The notes under the pieces: model-generated
The model's database searches: none
Seen by the model: the letters and a program-made list of their open reading frames with translations, nothing else
Told to the model about the DNA's origin: nothing
Made by a program: the position numbers and the translations under genes
Part shown: positions 386 to 14,405 of the stretch, piece after piece
Position numbering within the stretch: position 1 is the stretch's first letter
How the letters are laid out: the number at the start of each line of letters is the position of its first letter
Virus genome (UHGV): UHGV-1832398
Direction: 5' to 3' (one strand)
From: a virus
Length of the DNA stretch: 15,603 bases

Positions 386-1609
386 ATGGCGCTGTCTGAT
401 GCGTGGTTGCGTTCAGTCGTTGGAAAGGAACGTGATAAGGTTTTGGTTAAATCCGATCGTGATGGTCTGTCTGTCAGAGTATCACCGAAAGGTCGCGTAG
501 TGTTCCAATATCGTTATCAATGGGCAGGGAAAGGTGAGCGTCTTGATATCGGAACTTACCCGGCAACTGGATTAAAAGAGGCCAGAGAAGAAGTTATCCG
601 TCTCCGTGGTGAACTCGAGTCAAACCGTAATCCACGATTGGTCAAGCAGGCTGAAAAACGAAAAGCTACTGAAGCCATGACGGTAGAGTCTGTGATCCGT
701 GCCTGGTATGAAGCATATTGTGTAAAAAATAAAAAAGGTTCTGAACAGATACTCCGCTCGTTTGAGCTGCACCTGTTCTCTAAAATCGGGAATATCCCTC
801 ACGATGCAGCTACATTGCATGATTGGTTAGAAGTCTTGGAGCCTCTTAGCACTAAGACTCCAGCAATAGCAGACCGATTGCTAATTAACGCAAAGCAGGC
901 CCATGTCTGGGCGTATAAGAGAAAGCTCATTGAAACTCGCCCGCTGTCGGATATCACGGGTAAAGATATGGATATCCGTAAAGGTCAGAAGAAACGGTTT
1001 CTGACACATGATGAAATTAAAATCCTTTATTCTGCGATCGATGGTTCTCGAATGGTTCCTAAATACCGGGCCTTCATTAAACTACTGCTGCATTTTGGTT
1101 GCCGTAGTTCAGAGCTAATTACCGCCAGGGTGGACGATTTTGATTTCATTAATAAAGTATGGACTGTACCACCAGAACGACATAAGACTGGGGAGATAAC
1201 AGGCGAACCGCTAAAGCGGCCCATTATTGAACCGGTTGAAGAGCTTATAAAGTACGCTATCTCTATGAACAATGGTTCCGATATGCTTTTTACTAAGGAA
1301 GGAAGCAGGGAACCCGTTGGTCGAACATCATTGCAGTCGCTACCTTACAATTTAATGCAATACGCATGGCGGCGTTTTGGGTATCAATTCCCTCATTGGT
1401 CTCTTCATGATTTGAGACGGACAGCACGAACAAACTTTTCAGATCTTACTGCGCCTCATATCGCAGAAATAATGCTCGGTCATAAACTGCCAGGGGTATG
1501 GCAAGTTTATGACAAGAGCGATTATTTAGAAGAACAGCGTAAAGCTTACCAAAAATGGTGGGAGAGGATTGAGGCGATAGTTACTTGTACTTGTTCAGAC
1601 AGCAACTGA
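386..1609 (+). CDS. int: Tyrosine-type site-specific integrase (phage integrase)
   Basis: 407-aa ORF adjacent to the junction; C-terminal catalytic signature HDLRRTARTNF (H-x-x-R) and downstream Tyr (VYDKSDY); SD AGGTGA upstream. Confidence 0.9.
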   Translation: MALSDAWLRSVVGKERDKVLVKSDRDGLSVRVSPKGRVVFQYRYQWAGKGERLDIGTYPATGLKEAREEVIRLRGELESNRNPRLVKQAEKRKATEAMTVESVIRAWYEAYCVKNKKGSEQILRSFELHLFSKIGNIPHDAATLHDWLEVLEPLSTKTPAIADRLLINAKQAHVWAYKRKLIETRPLSDITGKDMDIRKGQKKRFLTHDEIKILYSAIDGSRMVPKYRAFIKLLLHFGCRSSELITARVDDFDFINKVWTVPPERHKTGEITGEPLKRPIIEPVEELIKYAISMNNGSDMLFTKEGSREPVGRTSLQSLPYNLMQYAWRRFGYQFPHWSLHDLRRTARTNFSDLTAPHIAEIMLGHKLPGVWQVYDKSDYLEEQRKAYQKWWERIEAIVTCTCSDSN

Positions 1610-1813
1610 CAGTCCGCTTTGAGCGGGGAGCGGACGTTAGGGGAAGAGTGGTCTGGAAAAATGTAGTGATATTCGACGCAGATATTTAGGCTGAGCACGA
1701 GGATTTTACTTTCTATATGAGTGACTATTATAAAAACTGCTCTCAGAATTTGATAGTATTTGATATGATACGCTCTTCTTTACTTATGCGTTTTTTAATA
1801 GGGTTAATATATA

Positions 1814-3028
1814 ATGACTAAGCAAAAAAAACCTAGGAAAGTTCGGATAACAAAAGCTGAAAAAGAACGACGTGCAGAGTTTGATAAAAAGGAAATGAAT
1901 ATACGTGAGTATTTTTCAAATTTAAATAAACATGTGAACGATATTCGTAGTAAAGAGCGAGATTTTCATGGCCTTATCAGAGAACTGAATTACTTTCAAA
2001 AAAATATTGAATTTGAATACGAGAAAACGAGGGACATATCCCATCCAAGAGACTTAGGCAATGCTCGCGAAAATATACTAAAAGATTTTTTGAAATTAAG
2101 CGGTTTATTCCCAAGGCGTTATGCTGTGTCTTCAAGAAGCGTAAGAGTTGCTGCTGCTACAGGACATCTTAGCAACGAGATTGACATCGCATTATATGAT
2201 GCAGATGATGGATATGTGCTAATGCAGCGTAACGAAATATATGATGTTTACCCTTCTGAAAATGTATATGGAGTTATTCAAGTAAAATCAAAACTTACTA
2301 GGAAAGAATTAAGCAGTGCCATAAAAAATATTGCATCATATAAAAAACTACAAAGAAAAAAGAATGGCCATGGATTTTTTATAAATAACACATCATTCTC
2401 AGGGTTCGGAGTTGTTTTTGCATATGAAACAGAAATGCACTGGGATGATATAGTATCTGCTCTTAAGGAAGAAATCCAGAGTAATGAAACAAAATTACTA
2501 CCCAATGCAGTTTTCATATTAAATAAAGGCTATTTTTTATTTGGTAACAACAATGAATATCTGAGTTATAATTCAGATAGGATGATTAATGCAACTGACA
2601 TGATTGTACATGGCTTTCCTGATCGTGATGGTTGTTCCTTAGTTAACTTCCACAAGTTAATGATTACATTGTTGAATAATACTCAAAAAGGGAATGTAAA
2701 TATAAGTGATTATTATAGATTACCTTTAACTGCTGGAGATTATTCTTACGAATTTAATTTTGGTATGTTTAATGAGTTAATTAACTGTGAAGTACACGGT
2801 CCATATCATCGTTTATTCAAAGAGAAAGCTTTAAAAACATTAGTAAATTATTGTGTTAGCAATGAACAGATTAATATGGTTAAGTTAATCGACTTGGCTT
2901 TAGGTAAAACTCCAAATAATGAGGAAGCATACCAAAGACAACCATCGATGGTGACATTATATAACCCAGAAAATTTGCCACTACCTGAATTAATGTTTAG
3001 GGCGGTTCCGATGGTAAAGAATATATGA
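1814..3028 (+). CDS. Hypothetical 404-aa cargo protein; N-terminal region carries a restriction-endonuclease-like (Mrr/PD-(D/E)xK-type) signature, C-terminal ~220 aa unassigned
   Basis: Long ORF, markedly AT-rich relative to flanking phage genes. Motifs read from translation: GNARENILKDFLKLSG (aa 82-97), EIDIALYD (D124 at nt 2183-2185), VIQVKSK (Q156 at 2279-2281, K158 at 2285-2287). Followed by hairpin plus T-tract at 3168-3206. Confidence 0.6.
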   Translation: MTKQKKPRKVRITKAEKERRAEFDKKEMNIREYFSNLNKHVNDIRSKERDFHGLIRELNYFQKNIEFEYEKTRDISHPRDLGNARENILKDFLKLSGLFPRRYAVSSRSVRVAAATGHLSNEIDIALYDADDGYVLMQRNEIYDVYPSENVYGVIQVKSKLTRKELSSAIKNIASYKKLQRKKNGHGFFINNTSFSGFGVVFAYETEMHWDDIVSALKEEIQSNETKLLPNAVFILNKGYFLFGNNNEYLSYNSDRMINATDMIVHGFPDRDGCSLVNFHKLMITLLNNTQKGNVNISDYYRLPLTAGDYSYEFNFGMFNELINCEVHGPYHRLFKEKALKTLVNYCVSNEQINMVKLIDLALGKTPNNEEAYQRQPSMVTLYNPENLPLPELMFRAVPMVKNI

Positions 3029-3167
3029 CATCAACTATCGCTTATGAACATATAACTTGTCAGGGTTATAGTATAATAATTCCATATTATTACTTGATGA
3101 AAGAAGATATGTTGGTGACATGTCCAAAATGCAAGAAAAATTTGACTAGTGATACATAGCTCTCAGT

Positions 3168-3206
3168 TATGGCTGATTGTATAATAATCAGCCATAGTTA
3201 ATTTTT
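3168..3206 (+). terminator. Candidate intrinsic terminator of the cargo gene (11-bp stem TATGGCTGATT / AATCAGCCATA, 7-nt loop, then T-rich tract)
   Basis: Perfect inverted repeat 3168-3178 / 3186-3196 followed by GTTAATTTTT; stem is AT-rich so termination efficiency is uncertain. Confidence 0.4.
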
Positions 3207-3361
3207 ATGTGTGGTTTACACTCTATTAGATTAGGCAGTAAATTTACTCATCTGTATATTGCATTGAAAACCGGATTTGCCATACTTCATAATTAACAAA
3301 ACATAAATAAATTAGTTAAATAACTTGCACTAAACTCCATAAACATATTATAAACTTCCGC

Positions 3362-3418
3362 AGCTGGCACAGAGCAGACAGTCATATTTGTTTGGTCTGT
3401 GCCATAGATGTGCCAGCT
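3362..3418. repeat. Inverted repeat AGCTGGCACA (3362-3371) / TGTGCCAGCT (3409-3418) with internal TGTGCCA direct repeats (3398-3404, 3409-3415)
   Basis: Direct reading; located immediately 3' of the Xis-like gene on the minus strand; could be the end-of-operon hairpin or a protein binding site. Confidence 0.4.
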
Positions 3419-3438
3419 CAGATTTGAGCCAATGTTTG

Positions 3439-3633
3439 TTACTCAATTACTCCAGCAAACCTGTATATCTTACGTGATGCCCATTTATTTGGGCAGGATT
3501 TAATATCAGGATCTGGAAAATCTTGTCTGTATTTCTGGCCAGTCCTCCTATTTACGCTGTTCCAGCGAAGCACCGTTGATATTGAAACGCCACAGAATTC
3601 GGCGACTTGTTTTGTTGTCATTAAGTTGTTCAT
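3439..3633 (-). CDS. AlpA/Xis-family small helix-turn-helix protein (candidate excisionase / prophage regulatory protein)
   Basis: 64 aa; N-terminal MNNLMTTKQVAEFCGVSISTVLRW matches the AlpA/excisionase HTH pattern (L-T-x-KQVAE-x-x-GVS-x-ST-x-x-RW); SD GGAGGGG upstream of the ATG at 3633. Confidence 0.7.
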   Translation of the reverse strand: MNNLMTTKQVAEFCGVSISTVLRWNSVNRRTGQKYRQDFPDPDIKSCPNKWASRKIYRFAGVIE

Positions 3634-6666: not shown

Positions 6667-7293
6667 TTAGAGTTCGTATTGAACTCCTTTGACTACACCA
6701 ATGATAAGGCAATTACCATTGATAGGGATGTTGGGATACCGAGGATTTAATGGCACTAAAAACTTTTGAGGGCCATCGATGACTAATTTTTTTACTGTAG
6801 CTTCGTTTGTTCCATCAAGTCGAGCGATGACTATTTTTCCATGACGAGGTTCTGCATCTGGATCTACAATCACTGTTGCGCCTTCTGGTATTGTTGGGAG
6901 GCCATTAGGGTTAGTCATGGAGTCACCTTTAACCTCTAATGCAAATGAGTTATCACCAATCTTTAATGATGTATCTACCCACTTGTCCACTTCACTAAAC
7001 ACTTCTGCTGCCCTGCACTCAGTAAACTGCCCAGCCTGAACCCACGATATTACAGGAACTCTGCGCATGTTTGTGACGAGTTTGCCTTCAAACTCAGCAC
7101 CATAAAGAATGTAATCTATTGACGTATTGAAGAACTTCGCTAATTTCGAAAGTGCCTCCCCACCAGGGGTATTGATGTCTTTCTCCCAGTACCCCACAGC
7201 AACGTCGCTTACTCCACAAAATTTACCCAATTCTTTCTGGGACGTTCCGGTAACTCTTCTCAGAGCTTTTATACGCTGACCAACCGTTTCCAT
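6667..7293 (-). CDS. cI: CI-type prophage repressor with N-terminal HTH and C-terminal LexA-like S24 autopeptidase domain
   Basis: HTH region (QKELGKFCGVSDVAVGYWEKD); Ala-Gly cleavage site (WVQAGQF); Ser/Lys dyad motifs (GDSM ... VKKL). Confidence 0.9.
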   Translation of the reverse strand: METVGQRIKALRRVTGTSQKELGKFCGVSDVAVGYWEKDINTPGGEALSKLAKFFNTSIDYILYGAEFEGKLVTNMRRVPVISWVQAGQFTECRAAEVFSEVDKWVDTSLKIGDNSFALEVKGDSMTNPNGLPTIPEGATVIVDPDAEPRHGKIVIARLDGTNEATVKKLVIDGPQKFLVPLNPRYPNIPINGNCLIIGVVKGVQYEL

Positions 7294-9468: not shown

Positions 9469-9957
9469 ATGAGTCTTTTGAATGACGTTCAGAAATTCAT
9501 TGAAGCCCATCCGGGCTGTACTTCCGGAGACATTGCGGATGCTTTTGCAGGTTACTCACGGCAGCGCGTTCTGCAGTCAGCAAGCAAGTTACGTCAGAGT
9601 GGGCGTGTGGCTCACCGTTGTGAAGGAGATACACGCAGACATTTCCCGCGCCTGACTGAGAGAGCGCAGGAACCGGAACCACAACCAGTTCGAGAAACCA
9701 GACCTGTGCGCAATTTCTATGTCGGCACTAACGATCCACGGGTGATTTTGTGCCTGACCCGCCAGGCTGAAGAACTGGAGTCCAGGGGCTTATACCGTCG
9801 TGCTGCAACCGTGTGGATGGCGGCATTCCGTGAAAGCCACTCCCAGCCAGAACGAAACAATTTTCTGGCGCGTCGTGAGCGGTGCTTACGGAAAAGCAGC
9901 AAGCGCGCTGCATCGGGTGAAGAGTGGTATCTGTCAGGGAATTACGTGGGGGCTTAA
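9469..9957 (+). CDS. PerC-family-like transcriptional regulator (N-terminal HTH-like region plus PerC-like motif)
   Basis: Motif TRQAEELESRGLYRRAATVWMAAF resembles the conserved PerC/Pch core as I recall it; ATG at 9469 preceded by AGGGGG; the ORF track's GTG at 9463 overlaps the upstream stop. Confidence 0.5.
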   Translation: MSLLNDVQKFIEAHPGCTSGDIADAFAGYSRQRVLQSASKLRQSGRVAHRCEGDTRRHFPRLTERAQEPEPQPVRETRPVRNFYVGTNDPRVILCLTRQAEELESRGLYRRAATVWMAAFRESHSQPERNNFLARRERCLRKSSKRAASGEEWYLSGNYVGA

Positions 9958-10283
9958 TGACGACGTTAACTCAATGCCAGCAGCAGGTGCTGGATATGCT
10001 GATTTCTTATCAGAAAGAACGTGGCTTCCCGCCAACCAATCAGGAGGTGGCAACCATGCTGGGATACCGTTCGGTGAATGCAGCGGTGGAGCATCTTCGT
10101 GCGCTGGAGAAAAAAGGCGTCATCACGATAAAGCGTGGCGTGGCCCGGGGGATAACGCTTCATACCGCGGTGAAGGACGACGACAGCGAGGCGGTCGGGA
10201 TTATCCGCGCACTGCTTGCCGGTGAGGAAAACGCAAAGCTGCGTGCAACCCACTGGTTACATGAGAGGGGCCTGAAAGTATGA
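9957..10283 (+). CDS. LexA N-terminal DNA-binding-domain protein lacking the S24 peptidase domain
   Basis: MTTLTQCQQQVLDMLISYQKERGFPPTNQEVATMLGYRSVNAAVEHLRALEKKGVI aligns closely with the LexA N-terminus (MKALTARQQEVFDLI...[34 protein letters not shown]); ORF ends after ~108 aa with no Ala-Gly/Ser/Lys autopeptidase motifs; TAATG overlap with the upstream gene. Confidence 0.8.
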   Translation: MTTLTQCQQQVLDMLISYQKERGFPPTNQEVATMLGYRSVNAAVEHLRALEKKGVITIKRGVARGITLHTAVKDDDSEAVGIIRALLAGEENAKLRATHWLHERGLKV

Positions 10284-13676: not shown

Positions 13677-13889
13677 TCATGAAAGGTAAACATTGGCAGC
13701 TGAAGGGCCACGCAGACCATTTATCCGGCAAAATTCCACGCGTAATCCGGTGGTAATTTCTTCTGCATCGCGGAGATTGAGCGCTGAAACATGAAGCTGG
13801 ACATCGATACGACCATCGGATGGGGTGATAAGACCCTTGCCGCTTTTGCCGTCAAAGGTTTTGACAATTCCTGTCATTTTACGGGACAA
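13677..13889 (-). CDS. cspF: CspF/CspH-like cold-shock-domain protein
   Basis: 70 aa; [26 protein letters not shown] ... [14 protein letters not shown] has the cold-shock-domain fold pattern but lacks the canonical aromatic RNP motifs, as in CspF/H. Confidence 0.8.
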
Positions 13890-14189: not shown

Positions 14190-14405
14190 ATGTCAAATAA
14201 AATGACTGGTTTAGTAAAATGGTTTAACGCTGATAAAGGTTTCGGCTTTATTTCTCCTGTTGATGGTAGTAAAGATGTGTTTGTGCATTTTTCTGCGATT
14301 CAGAATGATAATTTTCGAACCTTATTTGAAGGTCAAAAGGTTACCTTCTCTGTAGAGAGTGGTGCTAAAGGTCCTGCAGCAGCAAATGTCATAATTACTG
14401 ATTAA
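14190..14405 (+). CDS. cspB: CspB/CspA-family cold-shock protein
   Basis: 71 aa; [19 protein letters not shown] ... VFVHFSAI (RNP1/RNP2 motifs); conserved 5'-UTR 'upstream box' GCCGAAAGGC at 14161-14170 as in cspA-family leaders. Confidence 0.85.

What the first reader, a model, noticed from the sequence alone, without database searches (positions are those of the whole stretch)
1814..3028. AT-rich orphan gene between integrase and excisionase encodes a 404-aa protein with an Mrr-like D...QxK nuclease signature: candidate single-gene anti-phage effector
Seen in sequence: the gene is strongly AT-rich relative to the surrounding prophage, sits alone on the + strand between int and the convergent leftward operon, and has its own hairpin-plus-T-tract at 3168-3206. 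The translation shows a Lys-rich N-terminus followed by GNARENILKDFLKLSG, EIDIALYD (D124, nt 2183-2185) and VIQVKSK (Q156/K158, nt 2279-2287). Established knowledge: this arrangement (helix, then hydrophobic strand ending in Asp, then hydrophobic strand with (E/Q)xK) is the core of Mrr-cat / PD-(D/E)xK restriction-endonuclease-fold domains, and integrase-proximal slots of temperate phages are recurrent sites for defence morons. Inference: a self-contained nuclease-based defence or abortive-infection protein whose C-terminal ~220 aa (no motif I recognise) acts as sensor or regulatory domain. I could not recognise the full-length protein as any named system.
Basis: partly seen in the sequence, partly recalled or inferred. 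Interest (0 to 1): 0.8.

Follow-up and report, generated by a model that had tools for sequence, protein, structure and literature searches.

The report
Frameshifted prophage NucC-like nuclease gene
The AT-rich gene next to the prophage integrase is a broken (10-bp deletion) copy of a rare, stand-alone relative of the CBASS/CRISPR suicide nuclease NucC that moves between anti-phage hotspots of temperate phages; it is probably a defence gene, but this copy is likely disabled.

Summary
The ORF, its low GC content, the motif coordinates and the hairpin are all real. However, the 404-aa ORF is a frameshifted allele of a 451-aa gene. A 10-bp deletion after nt 3006 cuts off the last 51 residues, and their codons survive out of frame up to 3159, just before the hairpin.

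NucC's cA3-stacking Tyr and gate loop are not conserved, and no cyclase is linked to the gene. Residues ~296-451 form a family-specific domain with no PDB relative. It has an invariant Cys-His...Cys-Cys set, and the truncation removes half of that set.

The gene always occurs alone, in at least five prophage or island slots, including the P2 tail-fibre/sheath hotspot, and next to other defence genes.

Best reading: a single-gene, cyclic-nucleotide-independent NucC-type DNA endonuclease that acts in phage defence. The closest validated relative is the DUF6602 gene Damona. The window's copy is probably inactive. No function was tested here.

The parts
1612..3420 (.). Mobile AT-rich cassette (upstream region, gene, terminator and about 260 bp downstream). 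It is shared at about 94% nucleotide identity with the tail-fibre-assembly/tail-sheath slot of P2-like prophages.
   Evidence: Megablast hits H12-H20 cover query positions 13-1821 of window 1600-3440. Context is and the alignment.
1814..3028 (+). ORF as it stands in the window: 404 aa. Residues 1-400 are native, followed by 4 frameshifted residues (VKNI) and a TGA stop.
1814..3159 (+). Extent of the ancestral 451-aa gene, interrupted by the 10-bp deletion.
   Evidence: Re-inserting TCCGATGGAA after nt 3006 gives a protein identical to E. coli AH04 WP_112032021. All 24 complete E. coli genomes with the gene have the 10 bp.
2998..3016 (+). Site of the 10-bp deletion. The junction lies after nt 3006, within the remaining TCCGATGG unit of a near-direct repeat (TTCCGATGGAATCCGATGG in intact copies).
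1853..2035 (+). N-terminal helical extension (helices at residues 14-48 and 54-74), rich in Lys, Arg and Glu. Part of it aligns with NucC's alpha0 helix, which mediates trimer-trimer packing.
   Evidence: Secondary structure of the AF2 model. The profile alignment reaches Serratia NucC residue 9. The role of alpha0 is from 10.1101/694703.
1961..2713 (+). NucC-fold endonuclease core (residues ~50-300). The Pfam DUF6602 match covers residues 72-179 (nt 2027-2350).
2069..2071 (+). E86, the invariant helix glutamate (NucC E39 equivalent).
2177..2185 (+). E122-I-D124. D124 is the equivalent of NucC D73 (Mg ligand) and is invariant. E122 occupies the position of NucC Q71.
2279..2287 (+). Q156-V-K158. 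K158 is the equivalent of NucC K106 and is invariant. Q156 replaces NucC E104 and co-varies with position 122.
2354..2404 (+). Residues 181-197, the equivalent of NucC's cA3 gate loop. This is the least conserved and least confidently modelled stretch.
   Evidence: Conservation 0.24. Mean pLDDT 65 for residues 181-190.
2699..3013 (+). The retained part (residues 296-400) of the family-specific C-terminal domain, including invariant C325 (nt 2786-2788) and H328 (nt 2795-2797).
3025..3159 (+). Orphaned out-of-frame tail: 44 codons identical to residues 408-451 of the intact protein. It carries invariant C440 (nt 3121-3123) and C443 (nt 3130-3132) and the conserved IPYYY strand. Its ATG overlaps the new TGA stop (ATGA).
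   Evidence: There are weak sub-threshold zinc-ribbon matches.
3165..3209 (+). Intrinsic-terminator-like hairpin (16-bp stem) followed by a T tract, 5 nt after the stop codon of the intact gene.
3365..3404 (.). Inverted repeat (16-nt arms, 8-nt loop) near the right edge of the cassette. It is conserved in the P2 context and could be a boundary or terminator element.
386..1609 (+). Flanking tyrosine integrase (not part of the cassette).
3439..3633 (-). Flanking 64-aa HTH ORF, a possible Xis/AlpA-like excisionase supported only by sub-threshold matches. It is not annotated in RefSeq relatives.

Best explanation
The locus is a self-contained, horizontally mobile cassette that encodes a stand-alone NucC-type DNA endonuclease.

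Shown here:
- Residues ~50-300 adopt the whole NucC fold, including the parts NucC uses to form trimers.
- They keep a PD-(D/E)xK-type active site made of E86, D124 and K158, with the second acidic residue moved from position 156 to position 122.
- NucC's cyclic tri-AMP pocket is not conserved, and no cyclase is linked to the gene.
- Every family member carries a private ~150-aa C-terminal domain with an invariant Cys325/His328/Cys440/Cys443 set.
- The gene travels alone between prophage and island slots that hold defence genes.

Inferred:
- The intact 451-aa protein is held inactive as an oligomer.
- During phage infection it is switched on through its own N- and C-terminal extensions, not by a second messenger.
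- It then cuts DNA without sequence specificity, which stops the infection, most likely through abortive infection.
- The four Cys/His residues bind a metal (zinc) that ties the C-terminal tail to the body of the domain.

The window's allele has lost residues 401-451 through a 10-bp slippage deletion, including Cys440 and Cys443. It is therefore most likely a non-functional remnant.
For: Fold and homology:
- Pfam DUF6602, 78.5 bits against a 27-bit cut-off.
- PADLOC NucC effector models, E 1e-17 to 2e-24.
- PDB sequence hits are NucC only.
- AF2 model pLDDT 90.4, pTM 0.85.
- Foldseek places NucC at E 1e-16.

Active site:
- D124 and K158 are invariant in 88 close and 33 divergent members.
- E86 is invariant among the 88 and present in 32 of the 33 (the remaining row has a gap).
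- Pairings of positions 122/156 among the 33 divergent members: E/Q 20, Q/E 7, E/E 0.
- Replacement of the (D/E) of (D/E)xK by Ser with the Lys retained is documented for active NgoMIV/Ecl18kI-group enzymes, which are NucC's structural neighbours (PMC3025569).

Not a cA3 receptor:
- The Y81 equivalent is D, N or E and never aromatic.
- The gate-loop region is the least conserved stretch.
- No partner gene is conserved across 30 loci.
- Only 2 of 30 loci lie next to a cyclase, and both of those are complete CBASS operons with their own Cap15 or SLATT effector.

C-terminal domain:
- It folds confidently on its own (pLDDT 86.8).
- Only 100 of 1.84 billion representative proteins have it; nearly all of the full-length ones are about 400-470 aa with the domain at the C-terminus, and all 33 that were scanned also carry DUF6602.
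- C325, H328, C440 and C443 are invariant.

Defence context:
- P2 tail-fibre/sheath slot, beside the single-gene SIR2 candidate PDC-S25.
- Integrase-proximal slot of a lambdoid prophage.
- Prophage ends after terL or after the tail genes, in one case beside a DUF4365-Crr6 (Divona-type) gene.
- An AlpA/integrase island.
- Neighbours include GajA, JetA, Old/AriA/PtuA-type ATPases and EcoRII.
- A DUF6602 single-gene cassette, Damona, has been shown to protect against phage (10.1101/2024.07.02.601686).

Truncation.
Against: - No functional test of any kind was done.
- Nuclease activity, oligomeric state, metal binding and defence are all inferred.
- Q at the canonical Glu position could mean altered or absent catalysis. 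Four to five divergent members have no acid at either position 122 or 156.
- Defence-island context is only suggestive, because morons also carry other cargo.
- The truncated allele is found in independent metagenome assemblies, so it persists and might retain some function.
- No copy was found in the INPHARED set of deposited phage genomes.
Confidence: 0.6

Rival explanations
1. It is a type IV-like (modification- or structure-dependent) restriction nuclease. In this reading the C-terminal Cys/His domain binds DNA and recognises modified or otherwise foreign DNA directly. The enzyme then gives direct immunity without killing the cell.
For: - It is a solitary nuclease with no methyltransferase partner.
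- It has an N-terminal nuclease plus a C-terminal beta-rich domain.
- Its nearest non-NucC structural neighbours are type II restriction enzymes.
- EcoRII and other restriction genes occur nearby in some loci.
Against: - The whole NucC scaffold, including its oligomerisation elements, is retained, and NucC is reported to be largely sequence-non-specific and insensitive to methylation (10.1101/694703).
Confidence: 0.15
2. It is still a second-messenger-activated effector. In this reading it works in trans, responding to a cyclic nucleotide made by a CBASS or type III CRISPR system elsewhere in the genome or in the neighbouring operon.
For: - The complete NucC fold is retained.
- The equivalent of R53 (a cA3 phosphate contact) is R or K in 86% of members.
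- In 2 of 30 loci the gene lies directly downstream of a CBASS operon on the same strand.
Against: - The equivalent of the adenine-stacking Y81 is never aromatic, and there is no conserved gate loop.
- 28 of 30 loci, the window and the P2 slot have no cyclase nearby.
- The two adjacent CBASS operons already have their own effectors.
- The gene moves as a single-gene cassette.
Confidence: 0.08
3. It is not a defence gene. It could be a selfish free-standing (homing-type) endonuclease that spreads between phage genomes, or a phage-benefit nuclease that acts for example on host DNA or on competing elements.
For: - It is an AT-rich, self-contained cassette that has recently moved between unrelated phage slots (94% nucleotide identity).
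- It often sits between conserved phage genes, for instance after terL.
Against: - It occupies known moron or defence slots rather than one cognate homing site.
- It also occurs in non-phage chromosomal islands and plasmids, beside Gabija, Wadjet and CBASS genes.
- The NucC scaffold is a non-specific, regulated nuclease, unlike site-specific homing enzymes.
Confidence: 0.07
4. The window's frameshifted allele is still functional as a split protein. The new TGA stop overlaps the ATG of Met408 (ATGA), so termination-reinitiation could produce the 44-aa tail separately. The tail could then re-associate with the 404-aa body, because the break falls in the least conserved loop of the domain.
For: - ATGA overlap at 3025-3028, with the tail codons 100% intact.
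- The break lies in the variable loop at residues 401-410 (conservation 0.32).
- The allele recurs in independent assemblies.
Against: - There is no Shine-Dalgarno-like sequence before the tail ATG.
- The overlap may be a coincidence of the deletion.
- The identity of the tail to the intact sequence is equally expected for a very recent deletion.
- All 24 complete genomes keep the intact frame.
Confidence: 0.1

Closest known systems
NucC (CBASS and type III CRISPR effector endonuclease; PDB 6P7O/6P7P, 6Q1H, 6UXF, 7ZGV)
   Same: - Shared sequence motifs: HP..G..E, LPxRY, S.(Q/E)ID, P.E.VY..(E/Q)xK.
- The catalytic Asp and Lys are conserved.
- There is an N-terminal helix corresponding to alpha0.
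   Different: - About 210 aa longer, with a ~50-aa N-terminal helical extension and a ~150-aa C-terminal domain.
- The Mg-binding Glu104 is Gln in this branch, with Glu appearing at the Gln71 position instead.
- The cA3-stacking Tyr81 and the gate-loop latch are not conserved.
- It is not encoded with a CD-NTase or Cas10.
- It is a stand-alone cassette.
Damona (single-gene anti-phage cassette of the Vibrio cholerae chromosomal integron; Darracq et al., bioRxiv 10.1101/2024.07.02.601686)
   Same: - Single gene.
- Carries Pfam DUF6602.
- Matched by the same Cas PD_DExK and CBASS small-endonuclease (NucC) profiles.
- Its homologues are reported to occur preferentially in prophages.
   Different: - Its sequence and length were not available here, so orthology could not be tested.
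- A motif scan of species genomes found no V. cholerae member of the present family.
- Damona homologues were reported mainly in Acinetobacter prophages, a genus not seen among the hits here.
- It is unknown whether Damona has the Cys/His C-terminal domain.
[quoted passage not shown]
   Same: - There is precedent for a non-acidic residue at the (D/E) position with the Lys retained (PMC3025569).
   Different: - Similarity is far weaker than to NucC.
- No methyltransferase partner.
- There is no evidence for sequence-specific recognition.
Mrr / Mrr_cat type IV restriction nucleases
   Same: Both belong to the PD-(D/E)xK superfamily, share the general D...(E/Q)xK layout and are solitary genes.
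   Different: There is no Pfam Mrr_cat match even at E<=10, and no Mrr-family structure appears among the listed fold matches.

Membership tests
Pfam DUF6602 (PF20247) | Match to the family HMM above the gathering score | tested here: met
   78.5 bits against a 27-bit cut-off, residues 72-179. All 33 divergent relatives tested also match.
PD-(D/E)xK nuclease superfamily | Restriction-endonuclease-like alpha/beta core fold | tested here: met
   [not shown]
PD-(D/E)xK nuclease superfamily | Catalytic D ... (D/E)xK residues | tested here: inconclusive
   D124 and K158 are invariant. The (D/E) position is Q156 in this branch, and E or S in others, with E122 co-varying. Such variants exist in active enzymes (PMC3025569), but activity was not tested here.
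NucC effector nucleases | NucC fold including the trimer-forming embellishments | tested here: met
   [not shown]
NucC effector nucleases | IDx30EAK active-site motif (D73, E104, K106) | tested here: not met
   The window protein has E122-I-D124 x31 Q156-V-K158, with E104 replaced by Q in all 88 close relatives. Seven divergent family members keep the NucC-type QID...E(V/I/T)K arrangement.
NucC effector nucleases | cA3 pocket (R53, Y81, T226) and gate-loop latch (H136, Y141) | tested here: not met
   The Y81 equivalent is D/N/E in 87 of 88. R53 is R or K in 86%. The gate-loop region has conservation 0.24 and low pLDDT. T226 could not be mapped.
NucC effector nucleases | Encoded within a CD-NTase (CBASS) or type III CRISPR operon | tested here: not met
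   No conserved neighbour in 30 loci. Cyclases are adjacent in only 2 loci, and both have their own effector. None is present in the window or in the P2 slot.
NucC effector nucleases | Homotrimer that forms a hexamer on activation | not testable with these tools
Mrr_cat / Mrr-like type IV restriction nucleases | Match to Mrr_cat, or closest fold being Mrr-type | tested here: not met
   No Mrr_cat hit at E<=10. The top fold matches are NucC, followed by type IIP enzymes.
Damona (DUF6602 single-gene defence) | Single gene with DUF6602 that also matches the Cas PD_DExK and CBASS NucC profiles | tested here: met
.
Damona (DUF6602 single-gene defence) | Sequence orthology to the V. cholerae Damona protein | not testable with these tools
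   The sequence is not in the paper text or the supplement held. No V. cholerae locus was found. The attC test on the Vibrio tasmaniensis locus was inconclusive.
Damona (DUF6602 single-gene defence) | Experimentally shown protection against phage | not testable with these tools
   This needs cloning and phage challenge.

The most novel reading that the evidence does not exclude
A NucC-fold suicide nuclease that has cut its dependence on cyclic-oligonucleotide signalling. In this reading the cA3 pocket has decayed, and a built-in metal-binding C-terminal domain with no known structural relative, together with an N-terminal helical extension, senses infection directly and drives the trimer-to-hexamer activation. 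This would be a one-protein version of a CBASS or type III CRISPR effector arm, spread as a cassette among temperate phages.
Probability: 0.35. Interest if true: 0.65.

Novelty: new variant of a known kind. Interest (0 to 1): 0.5.

Why it matters
If the intact protein defends against phage, it would show that the NucC scaffold can be activated without a nucleotide second messenger. NucC is known so far only as an effector activated by cyclic tri-AMP. It would also add a compact single-gene nuclease system to the set of defences carried by prophages.

The family is rare: about 100 clusters among 1.84 billion representative proteins. It is nevertheless spread across phyla. One variant is common in E. 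coli P2-like prophages, so it may help decide which phages can superinfect lysogens. The private C-terminal domain has no solved relative and would be a clear target for structural work.

For this particular window the practical message is a caution. The copy is frameshifted, so experiments should use the intact allele and keep the window allele as a natural truncation control.

Tried and rejected
- Mrr-like assignment: rejected. There is no Mrr_cat match, and the fold is NucC.
- Obligate partner gene: all-against-all clustering of neighbours in 30 loci found nothing shared by more than 5 loci.
- SIR2 neighbour in the P2 slot as a partner: rejected. It matches the single-gene candidate PDC-S25 end to end and is absent from the window.
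- CBASS linkage: only 2 of 30 loci, and each has its own effector.
- Known RNAs in the cassette: none.
- Consensus sigma-70 promoter between int and the ATG: none found by the scan.
- Deposited phage genomes (INPHARED, tblastn): no match. IMG/VR gave 7 viral contigs.
- Sequencing artefact as the cause of the frameshift: unlikely. The exact 404-aa product is on record in other assemblies of the same prophage, although read-level data were not available.
- Retrieving Damona's sequence or accession: failed. The test for an integron array around the Vibrio tasmaniensis homologue was inconclusive.
- Literature support for Gln at the ExK position via HinP1I (recalled from memory): could not be retrieved. 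I relied instead on the documented Ser-for-(D/E) case in the NgoMIV/Ecl18kI group.
- Measuring distances in the model (Cys/His cluster; E122 to D124): not possible, because the coordinates are not exposed.
Full report
**1. Observation**

The window contains an ORF at 1814..3028 (+) of 404 aa. It is 32% GC, against 45% for the integrase gene and 49% for the rest of the prophage. A terminator-like hairpin with a T tract lies at 3165-3209. On the left is a tyrosine integrase (386-1609). On the right, on the other strand, is a 64-aa HTH ORF with only sub-threshold excisionase-type matches, followed by yfdR/yfdQ-like genes.

**2. The ORF is a frameshifted allele**

- RefSeq relatives annotate a 451-aa 'DUF6602 domain-containing protein' at this position.
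- Alignment shows that the window lacks 10 bp (TCCGATGGAA), one unit of a near-direct repeat, after nt 3006.
- The window protein is identical to E. coli AH04 WP_112032021 for residues 1-400, then has four aberrant residues and a stop. Re-inserting the 10 bp restores the identical 451-aa protein, ending at 3157-3159, 5 nt before the hairpin.
- All 24 complete E. coli genomes that carry the gene (24 of 5,426) have the 10 bp.
- The exact 404-aa product is nevertheless on record in other assemblies, in the same prophage next to yjjG. The allele therefore circulates and is not a one-off error.
- The orphaned 44 codons (3025-3159) are intact, and their ATG overlaps the new stop as ATGA.

**3. What the protein is**

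- Pfam assigns residues 72-179 to DUF6602 (E 4e-22). There is no Mrr_cat match.
- PADLOC models for the CBASS effector NucC and a Cas-associated PD_DExK nuclease match at E 1e-17 to 2e-24.
- The only PDB sequences matched are NucC proteins.
- An AlphaFold2 model of the intact P2-slot variant (P0001, 95% identical), built on 88 homologues, is confident (pLDDT 90.4, pTM 0.85).
- Foldseek ranks NucC structures first at E~1e-16.

So residues ~50-300 are a whole NucC fold, not a generic or Mrr-type PD-(D/E)xK domain.

**4. Active site**

NucC's published motif is IDx30EAK. D73 and E104 bind Mg, and the D73N mutant is inactive (10.1101/694703). The profile alignment reproduces NucC's numbering and maps D73 to D124, E104 to Q156, K106 to K158, E39 to E86 and Q71 to E122.

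- In 88 close family members, D124, Q156, K158 and E86 are invariant, and E122 is present in 86 of 88.
- In 33 more divergent members, D124 and K158 remain invariant. Positions 122 and 156 co-vary: E/Q 20, Q/E 7, Q/Q 4, Q/S 1, E/S 1, and never E/E.
- This fits migration of one acidic ligand between two neighbouring strands. The counts are not corrected for phylogeny.
- A non-acidic residue at the (D/E) position with the Lys retained is documented in active enzymes of the NgoMIV/Ecl18kI group (PMC3025569). These are among NucC's structural neighbours.

Activity is plausible but untested.

**5. What it does not share with NucC**

- NucC binds cA3 through R53, Y81 and T226, under a gate loop latched by H136 and Y141.
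- Here the Y81 equivalent is D, N or E and never aromatic. The gate-loop region (residues 181-197) is the least conserved (0.24) and least confident part of the protein.
- Clustering the neighbours of 30 species-level loci found no gene shared by more than five loci.
- Two loci have a cyclase immediately upstream. Both are complete CBASS operons with their own Cap15 or SLATT effector.
- The gene therefore behaves as a single-gene module without a dedicated signal generator.

**6. The extra parts**

The N-terminus adds a long basic/acidic helix (residues 14-48) ahead of the alpha0-like helix.

Residues ~296-451 form a separate domain:
- It folds confidently on its own (pLDDT 86.8).
- An exhaustive profile search of 1.84 billion representative proteins found it in only 100. 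Nearly all of the full-length ones are about 400-470 aa with the domain at the C-terminus, and all 33 that were scanned also contain DUF6602. It is a private extension, not a shuffled sensor module.
- Its strongest feature is C325, H328, C440 and C443, invariant in every full-length member.
- C325 and H328 sit in a beta-hairpin turn, and C440 and C443 sit at the start of the last helix. This layout is typical of a zinc knuckle plus helix. That is my inference, because distances could not be measured.
- The window's deletion removes C440, C443 and three of the four terminal strands.

**7. Context and mobility**

The cassette (window 1612-3420) is about 94% identical at the DNA level to a copy in P2-like prophages. 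There it sits between the tail-fibre-assembly and tail-sheath genes, beside a SIR2 gene that matches the single-gene defence candidate PDC-S25. That variant is on record in 638 blocks of the assembly collection.

Other family members lie:
- after terL at a prophage end, in Citrobacter and Kosakonia;
- after the tail genes of a Pseudomonas prophage, near a DUF4365-Crr6 (Divona-type) gene;
- in an AlpA/integrase island in E. coli;
- beside a TIR protein in a Vibrio;
- on plasmids and chromosomes of Proteobacteria, Negativicutes, Acidobacteriota, Myxococcota and Melainabacteria;
- on seven IMG/VR viral contigs.

Neighbours include GajA, JetA, Old/AriA/PtuA-type ATPases, EcoRII, HipA, integrases and transposases.

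**8. Comparison with what is known**

- The only paper in the searchable library that mentions DUF6602 describes Damona. Damona is a single-gene cassette from the Vibrio cholerae chromosomal integron that protects against phage and matches the same Cas PD_DExK and CBASS small-endonuclease profiles.
- I could not obtain Damona's sequence, so orthology is open.
- No paper mentions the two RefSeq accessions or a stand-alone NucC-like defence gene.
- I therefore rate this family as a new variant of a known kind: NucC-type nuclease and DUF6602 single-gene defence. It differs through loss of the cA3 pocket, the relocated acidic residue and the private Cys/His domain.

**9. Verdict**

It is wrong about the Mrr affinity and the domain boundaries, and it is optimistic about this copy being functional.

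Most likely the intact gene encodes a messenger-independent, self-regulated NucC-type DNA endonuclease used by temperate elements against competing phages. My confidence in the overall reading is about 0.6: high for the fold, moderate for defence and low for the activation mechanism. The window's allele is probably inactive. A split-protein rescue through the ATGA overlap is possible but unlikely.

Noticed in passing
window 3395-3410 versus L001 (AH04): Copy-number variation of an 11-bp unit (TCTGTGCCATA) just right of the cassette. AH04 has 22 bp more than the window (alignment A1). This lies near the inverted repeat at 3365-3404. It could be a set of recombinase or Xis binding repeats, or simply slippage.
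   Followed up: no
L032 8271-9805 and L035 8300-9737: In Pseudomonas nitroreducens and Lucifera butyrica, a complete two-gene CBASS (SMODS+Cap15 and SMODS+SLATT_4 respectively) ends about 200-260 bp upstream of the NucC-like gene on the same strand. These are two independent cases out of 30 loci. They could reflect chance placement in a defence island or a functional link.
   Followed up: partly
L002 6214-7728; L012-L019 6012-7526: In the P2 tail-fibre/sheath slot, a 504-aa SIR2_2 protein that matches PADLOC PDC-S25 (E 2e-144) always sits upstream of the cassette. This makes a two-cassette defence locus.
   Followed up: partly
L009/L010 11568-12587: A DUF4365-Crr6 protein lies 2 kb from the Pseudomonas asiatica homologue, at a prophage end next to a relaxase. 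This is the domain pair described for the Divona defence system.
   Followed up: no
L022 10184-11365 (Pseudomonas silvicola plasmid p1); also L047 and L050: The homologue appears split into two ORFs in L022, and only partly matched in L047 and L050. Disrupted copies may therefore occur elsewhere too. This was not examined base by base.
   Followed up: no
window 6667-7293 (-) and 9924-10283 (+): The prophage carries a CI-type repressor (HTH_3 + Peptidase_S24). It also carries a separate 119-aa protein that consists only of a LexA DNA-binding domain without the protease domain, located between PerC and RusA.
   Followed up: no
window 13677-13889 (-) and 14190-14405 (+): Two divergently arranged cold-shock-protein-like ORFs lie in an AT-rich stretch between the Q antiterminator and the lysis genes. 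This is another moron region of the same prophage.
   Followed up: no
window 1610-1813: The consensus scan found no sigma-70-like promoter upstream of the gene, and the only purine-rich stretch (AGGG) lies 14-17 nt before the ATG. The first ~20 residues are poorly conserved in the family, so the true start codon and promoter are uncertain.
   Followed up: partly
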